From Escherichia coli (GTDB lineage: Bacteria; Pseudomonadota; Gammaproteobacteria; Enterobacterales; Enterobacteriaceae): DNA of 64,000 bases. The DNA is taken from assembly GCF_003019035.1 (NCBI RefSeq), contig NZ_CP027447.1; one strand, given 5' to 3'. The position numbers were made by a program, and so were the translations under genes. Below, piece after piece: positions 7,760 through 17,133 of this stretch; position 1 is the stretch's first letter, and each line of letters opens with the position of its first letter. The notes beneath the pieces were generated by a model that searched no databases, was not told the origin of the DNA, and worked only from the letters and a program-made list of their open reading frames with translations.

Positions 7760-8122
7760 GGGGCTGATTCTGGATTCGACGGGATTTGCGAAACCCAAGG
7801 TGCATGCCGAGGGGCGGTTGGCCTCGTAAAAAGCCGCAAAAAATAGTCGCAAACGACGAAAACTACGCTTTAGCAGCTTAATAACCTGCTTAGAGCCCTC
7901 TCTCCCTAGCCTCCGCTCTTAGGACGGGGATCAAGAGAGGTCAAACCCAAAAGAGATCGCGTGGAAGCCCTGCCTGGGGTTGAAGCGTTAAAACTTAATC
8001 AGGCTAGTTTGTTAGTGGCGTGTCCGTCCGCAGCTGGCAAGCGAATGTAAAGACTGACTAAGCATGTAGTACCGAGGATGTAGGAATTTCGGACGCGGGT
8101 TCAACTCCCGCCAGCTCCACCA
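7760..8122 (+). ncRNA. ssrA: tmRNA (SsrA, 10Sa RNA)
   Basis: 363 nt from GGGGCTGATTCTGGATTCGACGGG to GGTTCAACTCCCGCCAGCTCCACCA; contains the tag-peptide ORF region (GCAAACGACGAAAACTACGCTTTAGCAGCTTAA) and a tRNA-like 3' end. Confidence 0.95.
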
Positions 8123-8158
8123 CTTTTTAGTAAAATGACGTCTACTAAAGTCTACTAA

Positions 8159-8190
8159 GGCCGCATACCACAAGGGTTTGCGGCCTTTTT
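8159..8190 (+). terminator. rho-independent terminator downstream of ssrA
   Basis: Hairpin GGCCGCA-taccacaagggtt-TGCGGCC followed by TTTTT. Confidence 0.6.
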
Positions 8191-8289
8191 CATGTCCAGT
8201 GAAGTCTACTGAGAATTGCTAGAAACCACTCCTTATGGCACCCTCCTATTATCCCTCGTCGATGAGGGAGTAAAAACGAGGGAGCAAAA

Positions 8290-9522
8290 ATGCCAAAGGT
8301 AGCAACAAAACTCACTGACACAGAGATCAAAAAGGCCAAGCCCACAGAGAAAGAGTTCACGCTATGGGATGGAGATGGCTTGTTCCTGCGCATCAAACCA
8401 AGTGGCAAAAAAATCTGGCACCTCGGCTATACCGTTCCATTAACCAAGAAACGGGCCAAAATGAGTCTTGGGTTCTATCCCTACCTGACACTTGCTCAAG
8501 CAAGAGCGCTACGGGATGAATACCTCTCTTTGCTTGCACAGGGTATCGATCCCCAATCCCACAATGAGCAAAAAGCCCAAGCGCTTAAAGATGCCACTGA
8601 ACACACATTCCAGACTGTAGCGAAAAAATGGCTTGATGAAAAAATTAAAACATCAGGCATATCGCAAGATCATGCTAAGGATATCTGGCGTAGCCTTGAA
8701 CGGAACATCTTTCCTACTTTAGGGGATGTTCCCATTAAAGAGATCCGCCCTAAAATGTTAAAACAACACCTTGACCCCATAGAACAAAGGGGCGTACTCG
8801 AAACCTTGCGACGTATAATTTCCCGACTTAATGAAATTTTCCGCTATGCCGCGACAGAAGAACTCATTGAGTTCAACCCCGCTGACAACCTTATCCAACG
8901 TTTTAGTAAACCCAAAAAGCAAAATATGCCTGCGTTGCCGCCAGATGAACTACCCCGTTTCATGACAGCATTATCAAACGCATCTATACGCTTAGAAACA
9001 CGTCTACTAATTGAATGGCAACTTCTTACTTGGGTTCGTCCCGGTGAAGCTGTACGCGCTCGCTGGACTGACATAGACGAAGAAAGCAAGTATTGGAACA
9101 TTCCATCCGATTTCATGAAGATGAAACGTCCTCATAAGGTTCCATTGAGCAAAGAAGCTATACGTATTCTTGAATCCATGAAACCAATCAGCGGTCATCG
9201 TGAGTGGGTTTTCCCCAGCATAAAAAATCCTTTAACACATATGCACGAGCAAACTGCCAACGCCGCATTAATCCGAATGGGCTTAGGTGGAGAACTCGTA
9301 GCACATGGCATGCGTTCTATTGCAAGAACAGCAGCAGAAGAAGCAGGAAAATTTAGGACAGAAGTTCTTGAAGCGGCTCTCGCCCACTCAAAAAAAGATG
9401 AAATCATTGCTGCTTATAACCGTACAGAATATTTAGTCGAGCGTGTCGAGTTAATGCAATGGTGGAGTGATTATCTCCAAATACAAAAATATAAGTCTTT
9501 AACAACTCTGATCGCCAGCTAA
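8290..9522 (+). CDS. P4-family tyrosine integrase (IntA-like, but not the CP4-57 IntA sequence)
   Basis: 410 aa; N-terminal LTDTEIKKAKP...LWDGDGLFLRIKPSGKK arm-binding-type domain typical of P4-like integrases; C-terminal AHGMRSIARTAAEE...LAHS catalytic region; sits immediately 3' of ssrA. Confidence 0.85.
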   Translation: MPKVATKLTDTEIKKAKPTEKEFTLWDGDGLFLRIKPSGKKIWHLGYTVPLTKKRAKMSLGFYPYLTLAQARALRDEYLSLLAQGIDPQSHNEQKAQALKDATEHTFQTVAKKWLDEKIKTSGISQDHAKDIWRSLERNIFPTLGDVPIKEIRPKMLKQHLDPIEQRGVLETLRRIISRLNEIFRYAATEELIEFNPADNLIQRFSKPKKQNMPALPPDELPRFMTALSNASIRLETRLLIEWQLLTWVRPGEAVRARWTDIDEESKYWNIPSDFMKMKRPHKVPLSKEAIRILESMKPISGHREWVFPSIKNPLTHMHEQTANAALIRMGLGGELVAHGMRSIARTAAEEAGKFRTEVLEAALAHSKKDEIIAAYNRTEYLVERVELMQWWSDYLQIQKYKSLTTLIAS

Positions 9523-9679: not shown

Positions 9680-10399
9680 ATGGAAGATTTAGTTTGTAGT
9701 TGGTCACCAAAGCTGATCGTTGATCTTATAAAAAGTATCGCTTGGCCAGTAGTCGTCCTTCTCATCGGCTTCAGTTTTCGAACTCGAATTTTTGAAGTGG
9801 CACGTTCATTTTTTTCTAAAAACACAGTTTCAGAAATATCAGCTACAGTATCAGGTGTATCGGCAAAATTTGTGACAGCAAAGCAAACAACTGAAGTATT
9901 AGAAAGTGCTAGTACCAATGCAGCGAATTTACCAAAGAGTATGAGTATTGAGGCTATAAGAGCGCGACATGAACAGCATAAAACAGAATTCAGCGAAGAG
10001 TTATATCAATCAATAATTAAACATGCTTCCTCTTTAGATATTAATAATGATGAAAAAGTCAAAATTCTGGCACGTGAATTGTCTATTTATCAAGCTATAA
10101 TACGATATATTGACATTAATAAGATATTATTTCGCTCACAATACAATTTATTTTGTTCTATAAATAGTAATGGTGGTCAAATAAATAAAGAAGACGCCAA
10201 TCTTTTTTTTGAGGCGACCAAGAACAACAATAAAGAAGCATTCTCCGATTGGGATTGGATTAAATATATTGCCTATCCTGTTAGTAATAGCCTTATCTAT
10301 GAAGATAATAATTTTTATAAACTTACAGAGTTGGGAAGATCGTATATAGCTTTTATGTCAAAAAATCCACAACTAATCGACGAACTTGCAAAATTATAG
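9680..10399 (+). CDS. hypothetical membrane-anchored protein (island cargo)
   Basis: 239-aa ORF, AT-rich codon usage, one N-terminal hydrophobic segment (IAWPVVVLLIGFSF); no recognisable family motif. Confidence 0.5.
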   Translation: MEDLVCSWSPKLIVDLIKSIAWPVVVLLIGFSFRTRIFEVARSFFSKNTVSEISATVSGVSAKFVTAKQTTEVLESASTNAANLPKSMSIEAIRARHEQHKTEFSEELYQSIIKHASSLDINNDEKVKILARELSIYQAIIRYIDINKILFRSQYNLFCSINSNGGQINKEDANLFFEATKNNNKEAFSDWDWIKYIAYPVSNSLIYEDNNFYKLTELGRSYIAFMSKNPQLIDELAKL

Positions 10400-10629: not shown

Positions 10630-11082
10630 CTATTTATCATTACGTTTTTTCATAAAATATTTATAACGTTCATCAGCTTCTTTTTGAAACTTTTCAGCGT
10701 CAAACGTATCAGTTTCTATTTTTATTTTTTGTTTTACCGCTTCATCTAATCTTTTATTTTCTTTCAATCTTTCTTTTTCTACTAATATAAGTTTATAGTA
10801 TTTTAGCTTAATATTAAAACTTGCTTTTGCTAACTCCTTAGCGTCAAAACCTATATTGTATTTTTTAAGAAGTTTCAATATATAATCTATAGTCATTTTT
10901 TTCACTTCCTTTTTTATTTTTTCTTCATGCGCATCTTTTTTTATACTCCCACTTTTTAACCATTGCTTAAATTTATAGCCATTATAATGCTGCCATTGAT
11001 ATATTTCAGCGGCATACATCACCGACAACATACAAACAATAAAAAATACAACCATAAAAACCACACATATTAAATAATACAT
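10630..11082 (-). CDS. hypothetical membrane-anchored Lys-rich coiled-coil protein (last gene of operon)
   Basis: 150 aa; N-terminal TM helix (YYLICVVFMVVFFIVCMLSVMY) followed by a charged helical region; 1-nt gap to the upstream ORF. Confidence 0.5.
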   Translation of the reverse strand: MYYLICVVFMVVFFIVCMLSVMYAAEIYQWQHYNGYKFKQWLKSGSIKKDAHEEKIKKEVKKMTIDYILKLLKKYNIGFDAKELAKASFNIKLKYYKLILVEKERLKENKRLDEAVKQKIKIETDTFDAEKFQKEADERYKYFMKKRNDK

Positions 11083-11083
11083 A

Positions 11084-11320
11084 TCAGCCCCCGCCTTTCC
11101 TTCTATATTGTTCTTTTATTAATGCTACGTGATATTTTTTTGCGTTGCTTATACTTACATCAGCAGAGTTTCTAGCAGAAGCAAAAGCACTTGAAACAAC
11201 AGAAGCAATAATGGCAACTAAGAAAGCAGCAACAAAAAAACCCATCACTGGCCCCATAAAACTAGCCCCACCGTCATCTATTGCTGGTTTTGCTTTTGCT
11301 AATAATGATAATAGGCTCAT
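11084..11320 (-). CDS. hypothetical small membrane protein
   Basis: 78 aa; central hydrophobic segment PVMGFFVAAFLVAIIASVVSSAF; basic Gly-rich C-terminus. Confidence 0.5.
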   Translation of the reverse strand: MSLLSLLAKAKPAIDDGGASFMGPVMGFFVAAFLVAIIASVVSSAFASARNSADVSISNAKKYHVALIKEQYRRKGGG

Positions 11321-11730
11321 ATATTTCTCTCTTCTTCAATGTTTTTAATCGCTGTTTCTATTCTTTGTTTTACAAAGTCTCTAAACACATAACCTATTAT
11401 TCGCGCGTCTTCACATATATCTAACTCATCTTTTTTATGAAAATATAAATCAGCGCTTAAAAGCTCTTCGCTTTGAATATTTAACATTTTACTAGCAAGT
11501 GATATTCTAATAATATTTCGCACTTCTAAATCCAAGCTTGCTCTATCATGCTTATTCAAAAGCTGGAGCGGATGAAAATCTTTTTTTCTTTTCATTTCTT
11601 GCATATCATTATCAAAATCTATCATTAAAAAATGTAAGCAAGTAAAAGACGTATCATAGAAGTTTAAGCGGTTCATCATATCCGCCGTTCCCTCTTTTCG
11701 AGGGTTCGGGTTAGGTCTTAATTTATTCAT
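11317..11730 (-). CDS. hypothetical protein
   Basis: 137 aa; no recognisable motif; 4-nt overlap with the downstream ORF. Confidence 0.5.
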   Translation of the reverse strand: MNKLRPNPNPRKEGTADMMNRLNFYDTSFTCLHFLMIDFDNDMQEMKRKKDFHPLQLLNKHDRASLDLEVRNIIRISLASKMLNIQSEELLSADLYFHKKDELDICEDARIIGYVFRDFVKQRIETAIKNIEEERNI

Positions 11731-12064
11731 CTGCTTTACTCCTTTTCTTGTTGTTTTTTAGCTTCCATTCATTCAATCTTTTATCGCCTTCAACTTTTAA
11801 GAACTCACGCTGATCGTGTATTCTTTTCAGTATTAGATTATTAGTTAACGCTCCTACTAACAAAGAAATATCATTCGCAAAATCTAATGTCTCGATGTTA
11901 TTTTCTCTAACTATTCTTATTAGTTCAGCGCCGGCTTTTATTTTACGTGTCGTATCTTTTTTCCTTTCTTCTGCCTTCATTTCTTGCTCCATTCTATTCA
12001 ATAAGTTTGCTCTTTGCTCAATTTCTTTTTTTAATTTATTATATTTTTCTATATTAAACGCCAT
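11723..12064 (-). CDS. hypothetical coiled-coil, Lys/Glu-rich protein
   Basis: 113 aa; highly charged helical sequence; overlaps neighbours (12064/12054, 11730/11723). Confidence 0.5.
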   Translation of the reverse strand: MAFNIEKYNKLKKEIEQRANLLNRMEQEMKAEERKKDTTRKIKAGAELIRIVRENNIETLDFANDISLLVGALTNNLILKRIHDQREFLKVEGDKRLNEWKLKNNKKRSKADE

Positions 12065-12383
12065 TTTCTGAACCTCTCTTTTCTTTTATCGTAATAAAAA
12101 AGGCAATCAACCCACTGATCAATAAAATTGGTAAAGTTAAAATAAACCCTACCAATAACACTAATGAAAATCCGAGCACGCCGGACATCTCATATAGATT
12201 TCCGAACAATGTGCTTTCGTTTTTATACTCAACCATATTCTGTAAAACAGACCTTTTTTCAATATCTTTTTCTTTTAAAGAATCTTCTCTATATTCATAA
12301 TCTTCACAACTCAAAGAAATTTCCACAGTGTTATCATTCAAATACTCATTATCATAATAGTCGTAATCATTATTCCCAATCAT
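12054..12383 (-). CDS. hypothetical membrane protein with acidic Tyr/Asp-rich N-terminus and C-terminal TM segment
   Basis: 109 aa; hydrophobic stretch GVLGFSLVLLVGFILTLPILLISGLIAFFI; overlapping stop/start with both neighbours. Confidence 0.5.
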   Translation of the reverse strand: MIGNNDYDYYDNEYLNDNTVEISLSCEDYEYREDSLKEKDIEKRSVLQNMVEYKNESTLFGNLYEMSGVLGFSLVLLVGFILTLPILLISGLIAFFITIKEKRGSENGV

Positions 12384-12565
12384 TCTAGATCTCCTTCTAA
12401 CGTGTCATAAACAACAGTAAAATCATTCTCATGAGAAAGAAGATTGTAAGTTATAAATAAGCTTGTCCTATAAACAATATCTGTATTTTCATCCTGTAGT
12501 TTTTGAATAATCAACTTAACAAGATCAGACGCTGCCACTTCAATTTTTTTATCAATATCATTCAT
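12380..12565 (-). CDS. hypothetical small protein (first gene of six-gene island operon)
   Basis: 61-aa ORF; stop overlaps the start of the next ORF (12383/12380); divergent from mobA. Confidence 0.45.
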   Translation of the reverse strand: MNDIDKKIEVAASDLVKLIIQKLQDENTDIVYRTSLFITYNLLSHENDFTVVYDTLEGDLE

Positions 12566-12729
12566 GTTCCACCTCTTTTATTTTTTATGATTTCTGTTAT
12601 ATATATTAAGTAATATAATTATTTATTTAAGTAAAGCGCGATATATATTTTTTTGTTTTTAGAACGCATTTTTCAGATAAAAGGCTCACGTGCGGCGGCT
12701 ATTTTAGTTTTGCTAAAAACTACAATAGC

Positions 12730-12762
12730 GCACTTATACATTCTTCGAATGTGTGCGCCCCA
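12730..12762 (+). other. candidate MobQ-type origin of transfer (inverted repeat plus nick-site-like GTGCGCCC)
   Basis: ACATTC-ttcg-GAATGT inverted repeat immediately followed by GTGCGCCC, resembling the RSF1010 oriT arrangement (inverted repeat then TAAGTGCG/CCCT nick region); about 140 bp upstream of mobA. Confidence 0.45.
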
Positions 12763-12901
12763 TAAATGGGGGTTTACTAACGCAGAAAAATAAAAAGTAA
12801 TATTCGCTTTATGCTCAATATTACTTAATCGCTTTTCAAAAAAGCAAATATATTTTTATTATTTTAAAAAGTATGTGTTTCAATATCAGGAGATAAAAAC
12901 A

Positions 12902-14203
12902 ATGGCAATATTTCATATGAGCGCTCAAACAATAACACGCAGCAAGGGGTATAGTAGCGTAGCTGCGGCAGCTTATCGCCACGGCGAAAAGTTAACGGAC
13001 GAACACACAGGAGAGATCCACGACTACAGCAAAAAGAAAGGTGTTTCAGACAGTGTTATATTAATACCTGAAAGCGCAGACCGTAATTTTTTAAAGCCTG
13101 CGTATTTATGGAACATGATAGAAAAAAGCGAAAAAAGAAAAGATGCGCAGTTAGCTCGCGAGTTTAATATTGCGCTTCCTGTCGAAATGACAGATGAACA
13201 AAAAAAGGCGTTAGCAATAGATTTTTGCCAAGAGCATTTTGTAAAAAATGGAATGATTGCTGATATAGCTTTTCACAAGCTCGATAGCGACAACCCACAT
13301 TTTCATGTAATGCTAACCACCCGCAGCCTTACGCCGGACGGTTCAGAGTTCGGACATAAAGTCAGGGAATGGAACAACAAAGAGCAGCTCGAAGGCTGGC
13401 GCAAGAGCTGGGCTGACACAGCGAACGAGCACATGCAAAAGGCTGGCATCGATGCGCATATAGATCACAGATCACTGAAAGAACAAAAAGCAGAGCTTGA
13501 CGCTATCCTCCCCCCTCTCAGAACGATTGAGCAAGAGGCGCAGGCTATCAGCTTAGACAGACCGCCGACTATCCATAGAGGCCATAGCCGCAATCCAGAG
13601 CGACAAGCACGCTTTGACGTGCTCCAAGAAGTGAAAGTATCACAAGAGGAAAAAGCACTTAACCACATTGAACAGAAACAACTTAAGCCCTCGCCGCTGG
13701 CTCCAGCTTCCTCCCCTGCCGCATCTTTGCAAGATGCTACACAAGGAGGCAATGAAAACAACCCGCAAAATAGACTCGGCGAAGTTGGCGAATATCTTCA
13801 ATCTAAACTCAATAAAGAAGATAAAGCAGATCTTAATACTGATAATGAAATCAAAGTTCACACTACTAAAAATAATAGGGAAAGCAGTTCAGCAGCAGCT
13901 ATAGGTTCAACATCAAATATTAATTTAACCGATGAGAAAACAGATAAGAATCTACACTTAACAGAAGCACAAAAAGAAGAGTTAGAGGATTTAGAAAATA
14001 AAGAAGCAGCAGCGAAGAAAAAAGCTTATCTGATGAGCGGAGCTGCCGTTCCTGAACTTTCTCAAGATTACAAAACACTGTCAAAAAGTGAGTTTAAAAA
14101 TAAGCTTCATACAGCTAAACAATCAATATCATTAACTGAAAAGAGATTTAATGAAGAATGTGAAGCATATGATAACAGAAGAAAACGACCAATACCGCGC
14201 TAA
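12902..14203 (+). CDS. mobA: MobA/MobL-family (MobQ-type) conjugative relaxase
   Basis: N-terminus MAIFHMSAQTITRSKGYSSVAAAAYRHGEKL is the characteristic MobA/MobL signature; HFHVML histidine motif present; Ser/Glu/Lys-rich low-complexity C-terminus; AGGAG RBS 8 nt upstream of ATG 12902. Confidence 0.8.
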   Translation: MAIFHMSAQTITRSKGYSSVAAAAYRHGEKLTDEHTGEIHDYSKKKGVSDSVILIPESADRNFLKPAYLWNMIEKSEKRKDAQLAREFNIALPVEMTDEQKKALAIDFCQEHFVKNGMIADIAFHKLDSDNPHFHVMLTTRSLTPDGSEFGHKVREWNNKEQLEGWRKSWADTANEHMQKAGIDAHIDHRSLKEQKAELDAILPPLRTIEQEAQAISLDRPPTIHRGHSRNPERQARFDVLQEVKVSQEEKALNHIEQKQLKPSPLAPASSPAASLQDATQGGNENNPQNRLGEVGEYLQSKLNKEDKADLNTDNEIKVHTTKNNRESSSAAAIGSTSNINLTDEKTDKNLHLTEAQKEELEDLENKEAAAKKKAYLMSGAAVPELSQDYKTLSKSEFKNKLHTAKQSISLTEKRFNEECEAYDNRRKRPIPR

Positions 14204-16469: not shown

Positions 16470-16685
16470 TTATGCCGCTTGATTACGCGAATAAAAAATC
16501 TTATCATCAATCCATTCGTCAACTTCACTTTCAACAAATGCGATAGTTCTTTCACCAGTCTTGATCGGAGAAGGGAAATCACCCCGGCTAATCAGCCGAT
16601 AGATCCACGCTTTACAAAAACCAGTCTTGTTTAACACTTCGGGTATGCGGATAAGTCTTTTTCTTTCGTTCATATATTTCCTCAT
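16470..16685 (-). CDS. AlpA-family phage-type transcriptional regulator / excisionase-like DNA-binding protein
   Basis: 71-aa ORF; RIPEVLNKTGFCKAWIYRLISRGDFPSP resembles the AlpA/Xis helix-turn-helix region. Confidence 0.7.
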   Translation of the reverse strand: MRKYMNERKRLIRIPEVLNKTGFCKAWIYRLISRGDFPSPIKTGERTIAFVESEVDEWIDDKIFYSRNQAA

Positions 16686-17133
16686 AGTTGTTTTGATGAG
16701 GCTATTATTCGAATATCGCTTATGACGATCAACAACTTTTTTAGCAAAAAGTGCTTTTTTAGTTGACTATTTTAAATTAACAGTCATTTAATCACCTTTG
16801 GAAGTTGAACTCATGAGTTCAACTCCTCACCGCTAGTCATGACATTCAAAATGTGCTTATTTTTTAGCCACAATACTTTTTTTATCCCTTTATTGCACCT
16901 CAATGTAAAATACAAATAATTAATATATTTAATAATCAAATGATTAAAGAGTCGATTACAGGGACGCCAGCCAATCATGATTGGACGGTGTAAGGACAAC
17001 ACTAATAAAAACAGGAAGTTAGCAGTCTCAGCAGGACACCGACCAGACGGTGAGGAGACATAAAAGGATACGCAAAGGAGCCGCGGCCCCTGGTGATATG
17101 AAAGCCCACAGATGTGGGCTTTTTCGTTGATGG

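What the first reader, a model, noticed from the sequence alone, without database searches (positions are those of the whole stretch)
12700..12770. RSF1010-like oriT candidate between the divergent operon and mobA
The sequence CACTTATACATTCTTCGAATGTGTGCGCCCC contains a 6-bp inverted repeat (ACATTC/GAATGT) immediately followed by GTGCGCCC, echoing the RSF1010 oriT arrangement of an inverted repeat followed by the nick region TAAGTGCG/CCCT. It lies in the AT-rich divergent promoter region upstream of the relaxase, the usual oriT location.
Basis: partly seen in the sequence, partly recalled or inferred. Interest (0 to 1): 0.55.

Follow-up and report, generated by a model that had tools for sequence, protein, structure and literature searches.

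The report
MOBQ transfer origin, nick on opposite strand

Summary
CACTTATACATTCTTCGAATGTGTGCGCCCC lies at 12731-12761, in the 336-bp gap between a six-ORF operon (minus strand) and a MobA/MobL (MOBQ) relaxase gene at 12902-14203. The element is an island beside ssrA in E. coli, and the same module occurs on 5.4-6.2 kb enterobacterial plasmids.

The oriT interpretation holds; the proposed nick site does not. The repeat is part of a larger palindrome, GCGCAC-TTAT-ACATTC-TTC-GAATGT-GTGCGC. Read on the minus strand it gives ACATTC-GAA-GAATGT-ATAAGTGCG|C, the canonical MOBQ layout: a hairpin, then 9 nt, then a GpC nick.

- A covariance model built only from distant relatives finds one site in 64 kb, 12763-12719 on the minus strand (32 bits, E 8e-7). 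It finds nothing on the plus strand there.
- In 77 of 80 relatives, and in RSF1010-type, pSK41 and pRE25 plasmids, the nick-type strand is opposite the relaxase gene.

The predicted nick is between 12729 and 12728 on the minus strand. This is a new member of a known kind, and no nicking or transfer was tested.

The parts
12719..12763 (-). oriT core: 5' flank, hairpin, nick core and 9 nt beyond, read on the minus strand as ATGGGGCGCACACATTCGAAGAATGTATAAGTGCGCTATTGTAGT
   Evidence: Only significant hit of model R1 in the window (32.3 bits, E 8e-7). R1 was built from 10 distant loci and did not include the window.
12728..12737 (-). Nick core ATAAGTGCG|C. The predicted cut is between G (complement of 12729) and C (complement of 12728).
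   Evidence: Only exact copy in the window. Same 10-mer, same strand relative to the relaxase gene and same 9-nt spacing from the hairpin as in pSK41 and pRE25. Cleavage at 5'-GpC-3' is reported for pIP501 TraA (PMC4981023). The position here is inferred by homology, not measured.
12738..12752 (.). Inner inverted repeat (IR-1): ACATTC 12738-12743, loop 12744-12746, GAATGT 12747-12752
   Evidence: The equivalent helix in relatives is 99.8% paired, and all 7 pairs show changes on both sides. Invariant among 7 close relatives.
12753..12758 (-). It is complementary to the nick core at 12728-12733, across an ATAA bulge (outer repeat, IR-2-like).
   Evidence: Column pair 11-66 covaries in 78 distinct sequences (GC 40, AU 24, GU 3). 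The T12754->C change in strain Z1323 turns an A-T pair into G-T. pIP501 has a described imperfect IR-2 (PMC4981023); equating it with this outer helix is my inference.
12758..12771 (.). Small G+C hairpin CCCCA-TAAA-TGGGG, 5' of the oriT core on the nicked strand
   Evidence: Predicted in both strand folds. Compensatory change to CCCCCT-TTT-AGGGGG in the Klebsiella plasmid and in Photorhabdus. Unrelated small hairpins occupy the same place in distant relatives.
12698..12729 (.). Third hairpin: 14-nt arms GCTATTTTAGTTTT / AAAACTACAATAGC. It starts at the -1 G of the nick and runs 3' of it on the nicked strand. Possible accessory-protein site.
   Evidence: (I6, 93% complementary). One variable column (12705) among 7 relatives. 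Relatives have non-homologous inverted repeats 3' of the nick. Its function is inferred.
12902..14203 (+). mobQ relaxase, 433 aa; ATG at 12902 preceded by AGGAG
   Evidence: Pfam MobA_MobL 1.8e-63. NES relaxase domain 4HT4 E 1e-32 and R1162 MobA 2NS6 E 5e-12. 35% identity to pSK41 Nes. Tyr25 and the H125/H133/H135 motif are invariant in 32 homologues.
10630..12565 (-). Divergent operon of six small ORFs (61, 109, 113, 137, 78 and 150 aa). It would be the leading region if the minus strand is transferred.
   Evidence: The same gene set is kept with mobQ on plasmids and islands. No hit in NCBIfam, PHROGs or PADLOC. The first ORF is not similar to MOBQ4 MobC.
12607..12827 (.). Three copies of (T/A)AAGTAATAT bracketing the oriT core (12607-12616 +, 12794-12803 +, 12818-12827 -). 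Possible operator or accessory-protein sites.
   Evidence: (I9, I14). Both exact copies in the 64-kb window lie here. Function not tested.
7760..9522 (+). ssrA (tmRNA, 7760-8122) and the island's tyrosine integrase (8290-9522): the integration module of the element that carries the oriT
   Evidence: (NF007246, 462.6 bits).
16470..16685 (-). AlpA-like helix-turn-helix gene near the right end of the island
   Evidence: Annotated in the near-identical strain and in related islands; Phage_AlpA Pfam hit in the Photorhabdus locus. Not scanned separately here.

Best explanation
Window 12698-12771 is the origin of transfer of an integrative mobilizable island of roughly 8.5-9 kb, inserted next to ssrA. 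The same oriT-mobQ module also sits on small enterobacterial plasmids. Proposed mechanism, all steps inferred by homology with the RSF1010, pIP501 and pSK41 systems: the island excises as a circle using its integrase and an AlpA-like factor. The MobQ relaxase recognises the hairpin ACATTC-GAA-GAATGT and the 9 nt that follow it on the minus strand. It then cuts between G and C of ATAAGTGCG|C (between 12729 and 12728) using Tyr25, with a metal held by the His triad, and stays linked to the 5' end. A co-resident conjugative plasmid or ICE supplies the coupling protein and secretion system. The minus strand enters the recipient 5' to 3', so the six-ORF operon goes first and mobQ goes last. The hairpin plus nick core is recognised again to rejoin the ends. 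The CCCC is the stem of a neighbouring small hairpin.
For: Relaxase identity: Pfam MobA_MobL 1.8e-63; NES 4HT4 E 1e-32 with Tyr25 aligned to the catalytic position; catalytic residues invariant in 32 homologues. Site: model R1, built without the window, gives one hit at 12763-12719 on the minus strand (32.3 bits, E 8e-7) and no plus-strand hit. The same model finds its best hit on the strand opposite the relaxase gene, 12-168 nt upstream, in 77 of 80 loci with 42-53% identical relaxases, including 67 of the 70 loci not used for training. It also hits the strand opposite the relaxase gene at the oriT sites of pSK41, an IncQ1 RSF1010-type plasmid and a MOBQ4 plasmid, whose 178-bp intergenic region is a functional oriT (PMC6856555). 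Orientation in reference systems: with 51, and 84-86. Conservation: 12719-12752 has 0 of 34 variable columns, against 92 of 336 for the whole intergenic region. Hairpin covariation. MOBQ oriT consensus NWACCNNTAAGTGCGCCCTYNN (PMC3832669); the minus strand matches TAAGTGCGC exactly.
Against: No nicking or transfer was tested. Immediately 3' of the predicted nick the sequence is CTATTG rather than the usual C(C/A)CT(T/C), so the match to the 12-nt consensus core is 10 of 12, against 9 of 12 for the plus-strand reading. Sequence similarity alone therefore does not decide the strand. No MobC-like accessory protein was recognised. No clean attR repeat was found, so excision competence is unproven. 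No helper conjugation system is in the window. MOB-suite types the related plasmids as non-mobilizable, which I read as a gap in its reference set.
Confidence: 0.8

Rival explanations
1. One reading: the relaxase nicks the plus (mobQ-coding) strand at GTGCG|CCCC (12757/12758), 5 nt after the inverted repeat, and mobQ is transferred first.
For: GTGCGCCC matches 8 consecutive bases of the RSF1010 nick region, including the CCC 3' of the cut. The MOBQ4 plasmid even has GTGCGCCCT at the equivalent place on its coding strand.
Against: The strand is wrong relative to the relaxase gene when compared with RSF1010-type, pSK41 and pRE25 plasmids and with 77 of 80 relatives. Hairpin-to-nick spacing is 5 nt instead of 8-9. 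There is no model hit on the plus strand. The core is substituted in close relatives (12754 T->C in Z1323; G->T at the position of 12755 in Photorhabdus), and 3 of 9 columns vary. In distant relatives the corresponding flank is variable, while ATAAG(T/C)GCGC on the other strand is nearly invariant.
Confidence: 0.05
2. The palindromes are only operators for the divergent promoters, bound by a regulator or by the relaxase acting as a repressor, or they are an inactive relic. The island is not mobilized from this site.
For: The site lies between divergent operons. pIP501 TraA represses its own promoter by binding at oriT (PMC4981023), so a regulatory role is likely in any case. No attR or helper system was found. 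The element is rare: 4 of 5426 E. coli genomes carry it chromosomally.
Against: The nick core is invariant and the relaxase gene is intact, with all catalytic residues, in every copy on both plasmids and chromosomes. The family-wide match includes the nick core as well as the repeats. Regulation and nicking are not mutually exclusive.
Confidence: 0.08
3. The conserved block is a replication origin (double- or single-strand origin) of the small, probably rolling-circle plasmids, carried passively into the island.
For: The related plasmids encode a 563-aa 'protein rep' with weak similarity to HUH IS91-type proteins. Hairpin-rich conserved non-coding DNA is typical of such origins.
Against: The islands keep the block without any rep gene. 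The motif travels with MobQ relaxases on unrelated replicons in 77 loci and in theta-replicating MOBQ4 plasmids. On the plasmids, rep lies on the far side of mobQ.
Confidence: 0.02

Closest known systems
oriT/Nes of staphylococcal pSK41, pGO1 and pLW1043, and oriT/TraA of pIP501 and pRE25 (MOBQ3, 'IncQ-type' relaxases)
   Same: The relaxase domain is the closest solved structure (4HT4, E 1e-32; 35% identity). Read in the relaxase direction the layout is the same: GCGCACTTAT, arm, TTC, arm, GTGC. The nick core ATAAGTGCG|C is identical, the spacing is 9 nt, the loop is GAA, and the strand is opposite the relaxase gene. The outer complementarity GCAC/GTGC is also present (I infer it equals pIP501 IR-2).
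   Different: The 3' side of the nick is CTATTG rather than CCCTTA. The arms are 6 bp and of different sequence. The relaxase is short (433 aa against 665). The host is Gram-negative. The element is mobilizable rather than conjugative. It has a six-ORF divergent operon and can integrate into the chromosome.
MOBQ4 mobilizable plasmids of enterobacteria (pIGWZ12- and ColE9-J-like)
   Same: Closest characterised relaxase by identity (about 50% over 198 aa). Same hosts. oriT lies in the gap between divergent genes and mobA. The same mirror palindrome is present, with ATAAGTGCG|C on the strand opposite mobA. That intergenic region was shown to act as an oriT (PMC6856555).
   Different: There is no MobC homologue. 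The replicon differs (HUH-like rep or chromosomal integration, against Rep_3 or ColE2). The relaxase is 433 aa against 719 aa. The MOBQ4 hairpin has a much longer loop. MOB-suite types MOBQ4 as MOBQ but types these plasmids as non-mobilizable.
RSF1010/R1162 oriT (MOBQ1, IncQ1)
   Same: MobA/MobL relaxase (2NS6, E 5e-12). The nick core TAAGTGCG|C follows an inverted repeat with a GAA loop. The nicked strand is opposite mobA and reads away from it, towards a divergent gene.
   Different: Only distant relaxase similarity. RSF1010 has 10-bp arms, 8-nt spacing and CCCT 3' of the nick. Its GCGCAC lies 45 nt upstream rather than adjacent to the repeat. Its accessory proteins MobB and MobC have no counterpart here, and MobA is fused to a primase.

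Membership tests
MOBQ-type oriT (RSF1010 / pIP501 / pSK41 kind) | Adjacent cognate relaxase of the MobA/MobL (MOBQ) family, with an N-terminal catalytic Tyr and a His-triad motif | tested here: met
   Pfam PF03389 1.8e-63. Tyr25 aligns with the catalytic position of NES. Y25, H125, H133 and H135 are invariant in 32 homologues.
MOBQ-type oriT (RSF1010 / pIP501 / pSK41 kind) | Conserved nick core (N)TAAGTGCG|CCCT | tested here: met
   The minus strand has TAAGTGCGC exactly, then TAT instead of CCT, giving 10 of 12. The 5' part, which is the conserved part across 77 relatives, is fully met. The 3' CCT is not met.
MOBQ-type oriT (RSF1010 / pIP501 / pSK41 kind) | Inverted repeat 5' of the nick on the nicked strand, 8-9 nt away | tested here: met
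   ACATTC-GAA-GAATGT, then 9 nt to the predicted nick on the minus strand. The helix covaries in relatives.
MOBQ-type oriT (RSF1010 / pIP501 / pSK41 kind) | Nicked strand opposite the relaxase coding strand, with the repeat on the relaxase side | tested here: met
   Holds in pSK41, an IncQ1 plasmid, pRE25 and 77 of 80 relatives. The window hit is on the minus strand, 139 nt upstream of mobQ.
MOBQ-type oriT (RSF1010 / pIP501 / pSK41 kind) | Site-specific nicking by the relaxase and cis-acting mobilization | not testable with these tools
   Needs in vitro cleavage and mating assays.
MOBQ4 plasmid family | MobC accessory gene divergent from mobA, and a Rep_3 or ColE2 replicon | tested here: not met
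   No alignment between the first divergent ORF and MOBQ4 MobC. The plasmid rep is HUH/IS91-like, and the window copy is chromosomal. Relaxase identity of about 50% makes this a sister group, not a member.
Integrative mobilizable element (relaxase-encoding IME) | Integrase, attachment sites, relaxase and oriT, with no mating-pair formation genes | tested here: inconclusive
   An integrase lies next to ssrA. The relaxase and oriT are present, and no secretion-system genes occur between ssrA and ypjA. No clean attR repeat was found.
Rolling-circle replication origin | Nick site in a hairpin loop, next to and dependent on a rep gene | tested here: not met
   The predicted nick is outside the loop. 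The islands have the block but no rep.

The most novel reading that the evidence does not exclude
The oriT-mobQ-six-ORF module may be an unrecognised sister clade of MOBQ4 that current typing tools call non-mobilizable. It has no MobC and uses unknown small proteins instead. It moves between rolling-circle-type plasmids and ssrA islands that carry a variable cargo slot, while keeping its oriT core invariant. In this clade and its relatives, the nick core is held in a conserved, covarying stem with the 5' flank of the hairpin, which could act as a switch that hides or presents the cut site.
Probability: 0.35. Interest if true: 0.45.

Novelty: new member of a known kind. Interest (0 to 1): 0.3.

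Why it matters
The result assigns a transfer mechanism, a nick site and a transfer direction to a small E. coli island at ssrA and to a set of Enterobacteriaceae plasmids that PLSDB (MOB-suite) lists as non-mobilizable. Those plasmids should probably be counted as mobilizable.

It also shows a general trap. In this relaxase clade the oriT is mirror-symmetric, so GTGCGCCC on the coding strand mimics the nick site, and motif matching alone picks the wrong strand. The strand decides which genes enter a recipient first. Here that is the six unknown ORFs, and in the integrated state the chromosomal flank beyond ssrA.

The same oriT core on both plasmids and integrated islands is a small counter-example to the reported split between plasmid and integrative-element oriTs (bioRxiv 10.64898/2026.01.13.699239).

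Tried and rejected
- attR search: I looked for a direct repeat of the ssrA 3' end. Only a degenerate GTTCAACTCC at about 16813 was seen by eye, so the right boundary is left open between the AlpA-like gene and ypjA.
- Small ORFs and cargo: NCBIfam, PHROGs and PADLOC scans of the six small ORFs, the 239-aa cargo ORF and the two ORFs after mobQ gave nothing usable.
- Rfam scan of 12300-13000: no hit.
- Promoter/terminator scan: 4 promoter-like sites against 2.7 expected, so not informative.
- The first MAFFT alignment of 14 oriT sequences (A3) was distorted by long-loop members, so I rebuilt it from 10 regular ones (A4).
- An alternative pairing of the nick core with GTGCG at 12690-12694, seen in the minimum-energy folds, was rejected because those bases vary among close relatives.
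- The conservation figure for the 61-aa ORF is inflated by a truncated sequence and is not used.
- Papers not held: Edwards 2013 (NES-DNA structure) and Meyer 2009 (IncQ review). RSF1010 under NC_001740 is not in the plasmid collection, so an identical IncQ1 oriT was used instead.
- The MOBQ4 paper's supplement does not mark a nick site.
- No literature was found on DUF4755 or on this island type.

Full report
**1. What is there**

The window is E. coli chromosome, 99.8% identical to strain SCU-301 over the queried segment 12380-14210. G+C drops from about 50% to 31-37% between roughly 10 and 16 kb.

This low-G+C stretch is an island directly downstream of ssrA (tmRNA, 7760-8122). Its parts are:
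- a tyrosine integrase at 8290-9522;
- a 239-aa cargo ORF;
- six small minus-strand ORFs at 10630-12565;
- a 336-bp gap;
- a relaxase gene at 12902-14203;
- two more ORFs and an AlpA-like gene, followed by the chromosomal ypjA.

The quoted sequence is at 12731-12761.

**2. The neighbouring gene is a MOBQ relaxase**

It matches Pfam MobA_MobL at 1.8e-63. The closest solved structures are the NES relaxase domain of S. aureus pLW1043 (4HT4, E 1e-32) and R1162 MobA (2NS6, E 5e-12). Identity to pSK41 Nes is 35% over about 200 residues. Tyr25 aligns with the catalytic position, and Y25, H125, H133 and H135 are invariant in an alignment of 32 homologues.

**3. The module is mobile and conserved**

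The same six-ORF, gap and mobQ module occurs in three places:
- at ssrA in three other E. coli chromosomes (92-93% identity), each with a different gene next to the integrase;
- on twelve 5.4-6.2 kb plasmids of Klebsiella, Escherichia, Enterobacter and Salmonella in PLSDB (82-86% identity), of which the two inspected for it carry a rep gene;
- in a Photorhabdus chromosome, where the relaxase is 85% identical.

Across seven of these sequences, 92 of 336 intergenic columns vary. Positions 12719-12752 have 0 of 34 variable columns. The block 12695-12757 has 3 of 63 variable, against 83 of 255 for the rest of the gap (Fisher p 1e-6).

**4. The key anatomical point**

The 6-bp repeat sits inside a longer palindrome: GCGCAC-TTAT-ACATTC-TTC-GAATGT-GTGCGC (12728-12758). 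The GTGCGC motif therefore reads on both strands.

- On the plus strand: GAATGT-GTGCG|CCCC.
- On the minus strand: ACATTC-GAA-GAATGT-ATAAGTGCG|CTATTG, with 9 nt of spacing.

Against the published MOBQ consensus NWACCNNTAAGTGCGCCCTYNN (PMC3832669), the 12-nt core matches 10 of 12 on the minus strand and 9 of 12 on the plus strand. Similarity alone does not decide between them.

**5. Which strand: reference systems**

- pSK41. Read in the nes coding direction, the upstream DNA is ...GTAAGG-GCGCACTTAT-GCGAACG-TTC-CGTTCGC-GTGC.... This is the same layout as the window read in the mobQ direction. The strand carrying the nick-type core ATAAGTGCG|CCCTTAC is therefore opposite nes.
- pRE25, which carries a pIP501-type tra region. 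Read in the traA direction it is TAAGG-GCGCACTTAT-ACGCAGTAAC-TTC-GTTACT..., so again the nick-type strand is opposite the relaxase gene.
- An IncQ1 plasmid whose oriT matches the RSF1010 oriT sequence I supplied from memory at 100%. GGTAAGTGCG|CCCT lies on the strand opposite mobB and repB (which overlap or are fused to mobA in RSF1010) and reads away from them towards mobC.

In all three systems that I know to be experimentally characterised, the hairpin lies on the relaxase-gene side and the relaxase gene would be transferred last. That the nick falls at G|C within this core is from the literature: 5'-GpC-3' for pIP501 TraA (PMC4981023). For RSF1010 and pSK41 it rests on my own knowledge.

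**6. Which strand: relatives**

I fetched 80 loci encoding relaxase domains 42-53% identical to the query. In those with an exact AAGTGCGC, the strand opposite the relaxase reads (G)CGCAC-AC-arm-GAA-arm-GT-ATAAGTGCG|C(C/A)CTT.

I then built a covariance model from 10 of these loci, with the window excluded. In the training alignment the inner helix is 100% paired, and 4 of its 7 pairs show changes on both sides.

- Run on the whole window with filters off, the model gives one significant hit: 12763-12719 on the minus strand (32.3 bits, E 8e-7). The next best hit scores 10.2 bits. There is no plus-strand hit at the site, even up to E 10.
- On the 80 loci, the best hit is on the strand opposite the relaxase, 12-168 nt upstream (median 21), in 77 of them. 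This includes 67 of the 70 loci not used for training. The other three give no hit, and one of those has no upstream sequence.
- The model also hits the strand opposite the relaxase gene at the pSK41 oriT, the IncQ1 oriT and a MOBQ4 plasmid.

**7. Which strand: substitutions**

Strain Z1323 has GCGCGCCC, Photorhabdus has GTTCGCCC, and 3 of 9 columns in 12753-12761 vary. In contrast, ATAAGTGCGCTATTGTAG on the minus strand is identical in every copy.

**8.

GTGCGC is the complement of the conserved 5' flank GCGCAC. That flank can pair with the nick core across an ATAA bulge. Across 78 distinct sequences this outer helix covaries: column pair 11-66 is GC in 40, AU in 24 and GU in 3, and pair 8-68 also shows changes on both sides. 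Only the inner four pairs are consistently paired.

That alignment was fitted to the model, which favours the structure somewhat. However, sliding the partner column by 1-3 positions drops pairing to 8-51%. pIP501 is described as having a perfect IR-1 and an imperfect IR-2 at its oriT (PMC4981023). I infer that this outer helix is the same feature, so it is not new in kind.

The CCCC begins a separate hairpin, CCCCA-TAAA-TGGGG (12758-12771). Its stem shows a compensatory change in two relatives, and unrelated small hairpins occupy the same position in distant relatives.

A third hairpin, with 14-nt arms (12698-12729), begins at the -1 G of the nick.

**9. Mechanism (inferred)**

The island would excise as a circle. 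MobQ would bind the hairpin and the following 9 nt, and cut at G12729|C12728 on the minus strand using Tyr25. A helper conjugation system would then transfer the minus strand, with the six-ORF operon leading and mobQ last. The ends would be rejoined at the regenerated site, and the element would integrate at ssrA.

None of these steps was tested. No helper system is in the window, no MobC-like accessory protein was recognised, and attR was not found.

**10. Comparison with known systems and novelty**

By relaxase identity the closest characterised group is MOBQ4 (pIGWZ12-like plasmids, about 50%). Their mobC-mobA gap is a functional oriT (PMC6856555), and it carries the same mirror palindrome.

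This element is not a MOBQ4 member. It has no MobC, a different replicon or chromosomal integration, and a shorter relaxase. By oriT layout it is closest to pSK41 and pIP501.

It is therefore a new member of a known kind. It matters mainly for two reasons: it corrects the strand, and it shows that plasmids typed as non-mobilizable carry a complete relaxase and oriT module.

Noticed in passing
window 9680-10399; L003 4426-6024; L004 4286-6025: The slot between the integrase and the six-ORF operon holds a different gene in each related island: a 239-aa unknown protein here, a reverse-transcriptase-domain protein in strain PigCaeca_1, and an LA2681-family HEPN protein in strain Z1323. This looks like a swappable cargo slot, possibly for defence genes. 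The window's protein has no PADLOC, NCBIfam or PHROGs hit.
   Followed up: partly
related plasmids H1-H12 (e.g. L002, L005, L006): All 12 PLSDB plasmids carrying this mobQ-oriT module are typed 'non-mobilizable' by MOB-suite, although NCBI annotates a MobQ relaxase on most of them and the oriT core is invariant in the three aligned. This is probably a gap in the typing reference set.
   Followed up: partly
window 12607-12616 (+), 12794-12803 (+), 12818-12827 (-): Three copies of (T/A)AAGTAATAT bracket the oriT core. Both exact copies in the 64-kb window are here, and two of the copies form a 10-nt inverted repeat 12 nt apart. They may be operator or accessory-protein sites.
   Followed up: partly
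alignment A5 (77 relatives plus reference plasmids); window 12728-12733 with 12753-12758: The nick core GTGC and the 5' flank of the hairpin covary across the family (for example GTGCGC with GCGCAC, GCGCGC with GCGC, GTGGGC with GCCCAC, GCGAGC with GCTCGC). This implies selection for pairing of the nick region, or for a symmetric protein-binding site.
   Followed up: partly
L005 3682-5373 (-), L006 1684-3375 (-): The 563-aa 'protein rep' of the related plasmids has only a weak match to IS91-family HUH transposases (E 7e-8, below the family cut-off). This suggests rolling-circle-type replication by an uncharacterised Rep.
   Followed up: no
window 16700-17130: No clean direct repeat of the ssrA 3' end marks the island's right end. 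Only a degenerate GTTCAACTCC was seen near 16813. The island may be fixed in place, or may use a short or degenerate attR.
   Followed up: partly
L009 (contig SFGY01000080.1, 4148 bp, labelled as a Clostridiales MAG): Its oriT region is almost identical to that of a 4.09-kb E. coli MOBQ4 plasmid (L092). The contig is probably an enterobacterial pIGWZ12-like plasmid binned into the wrong genome.
   Followed up: no
window 12875-12902: The mechanical ORF list starts mobQ at GTG 12875. The ATG at 12902, preceded by AGGAG, aligns with Met1 of Nes and of all homologues and is the likely start.
   Followed up: yes
L088 2468-2541: In RSF1010-type oriT a GCGCAC lies 45 nt upstream of TAAGTGCGC, with a small hairpin and the inverted repeat in between. 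This may be a more distant version of the flank-to-nick complementarity.
   Followed up: no
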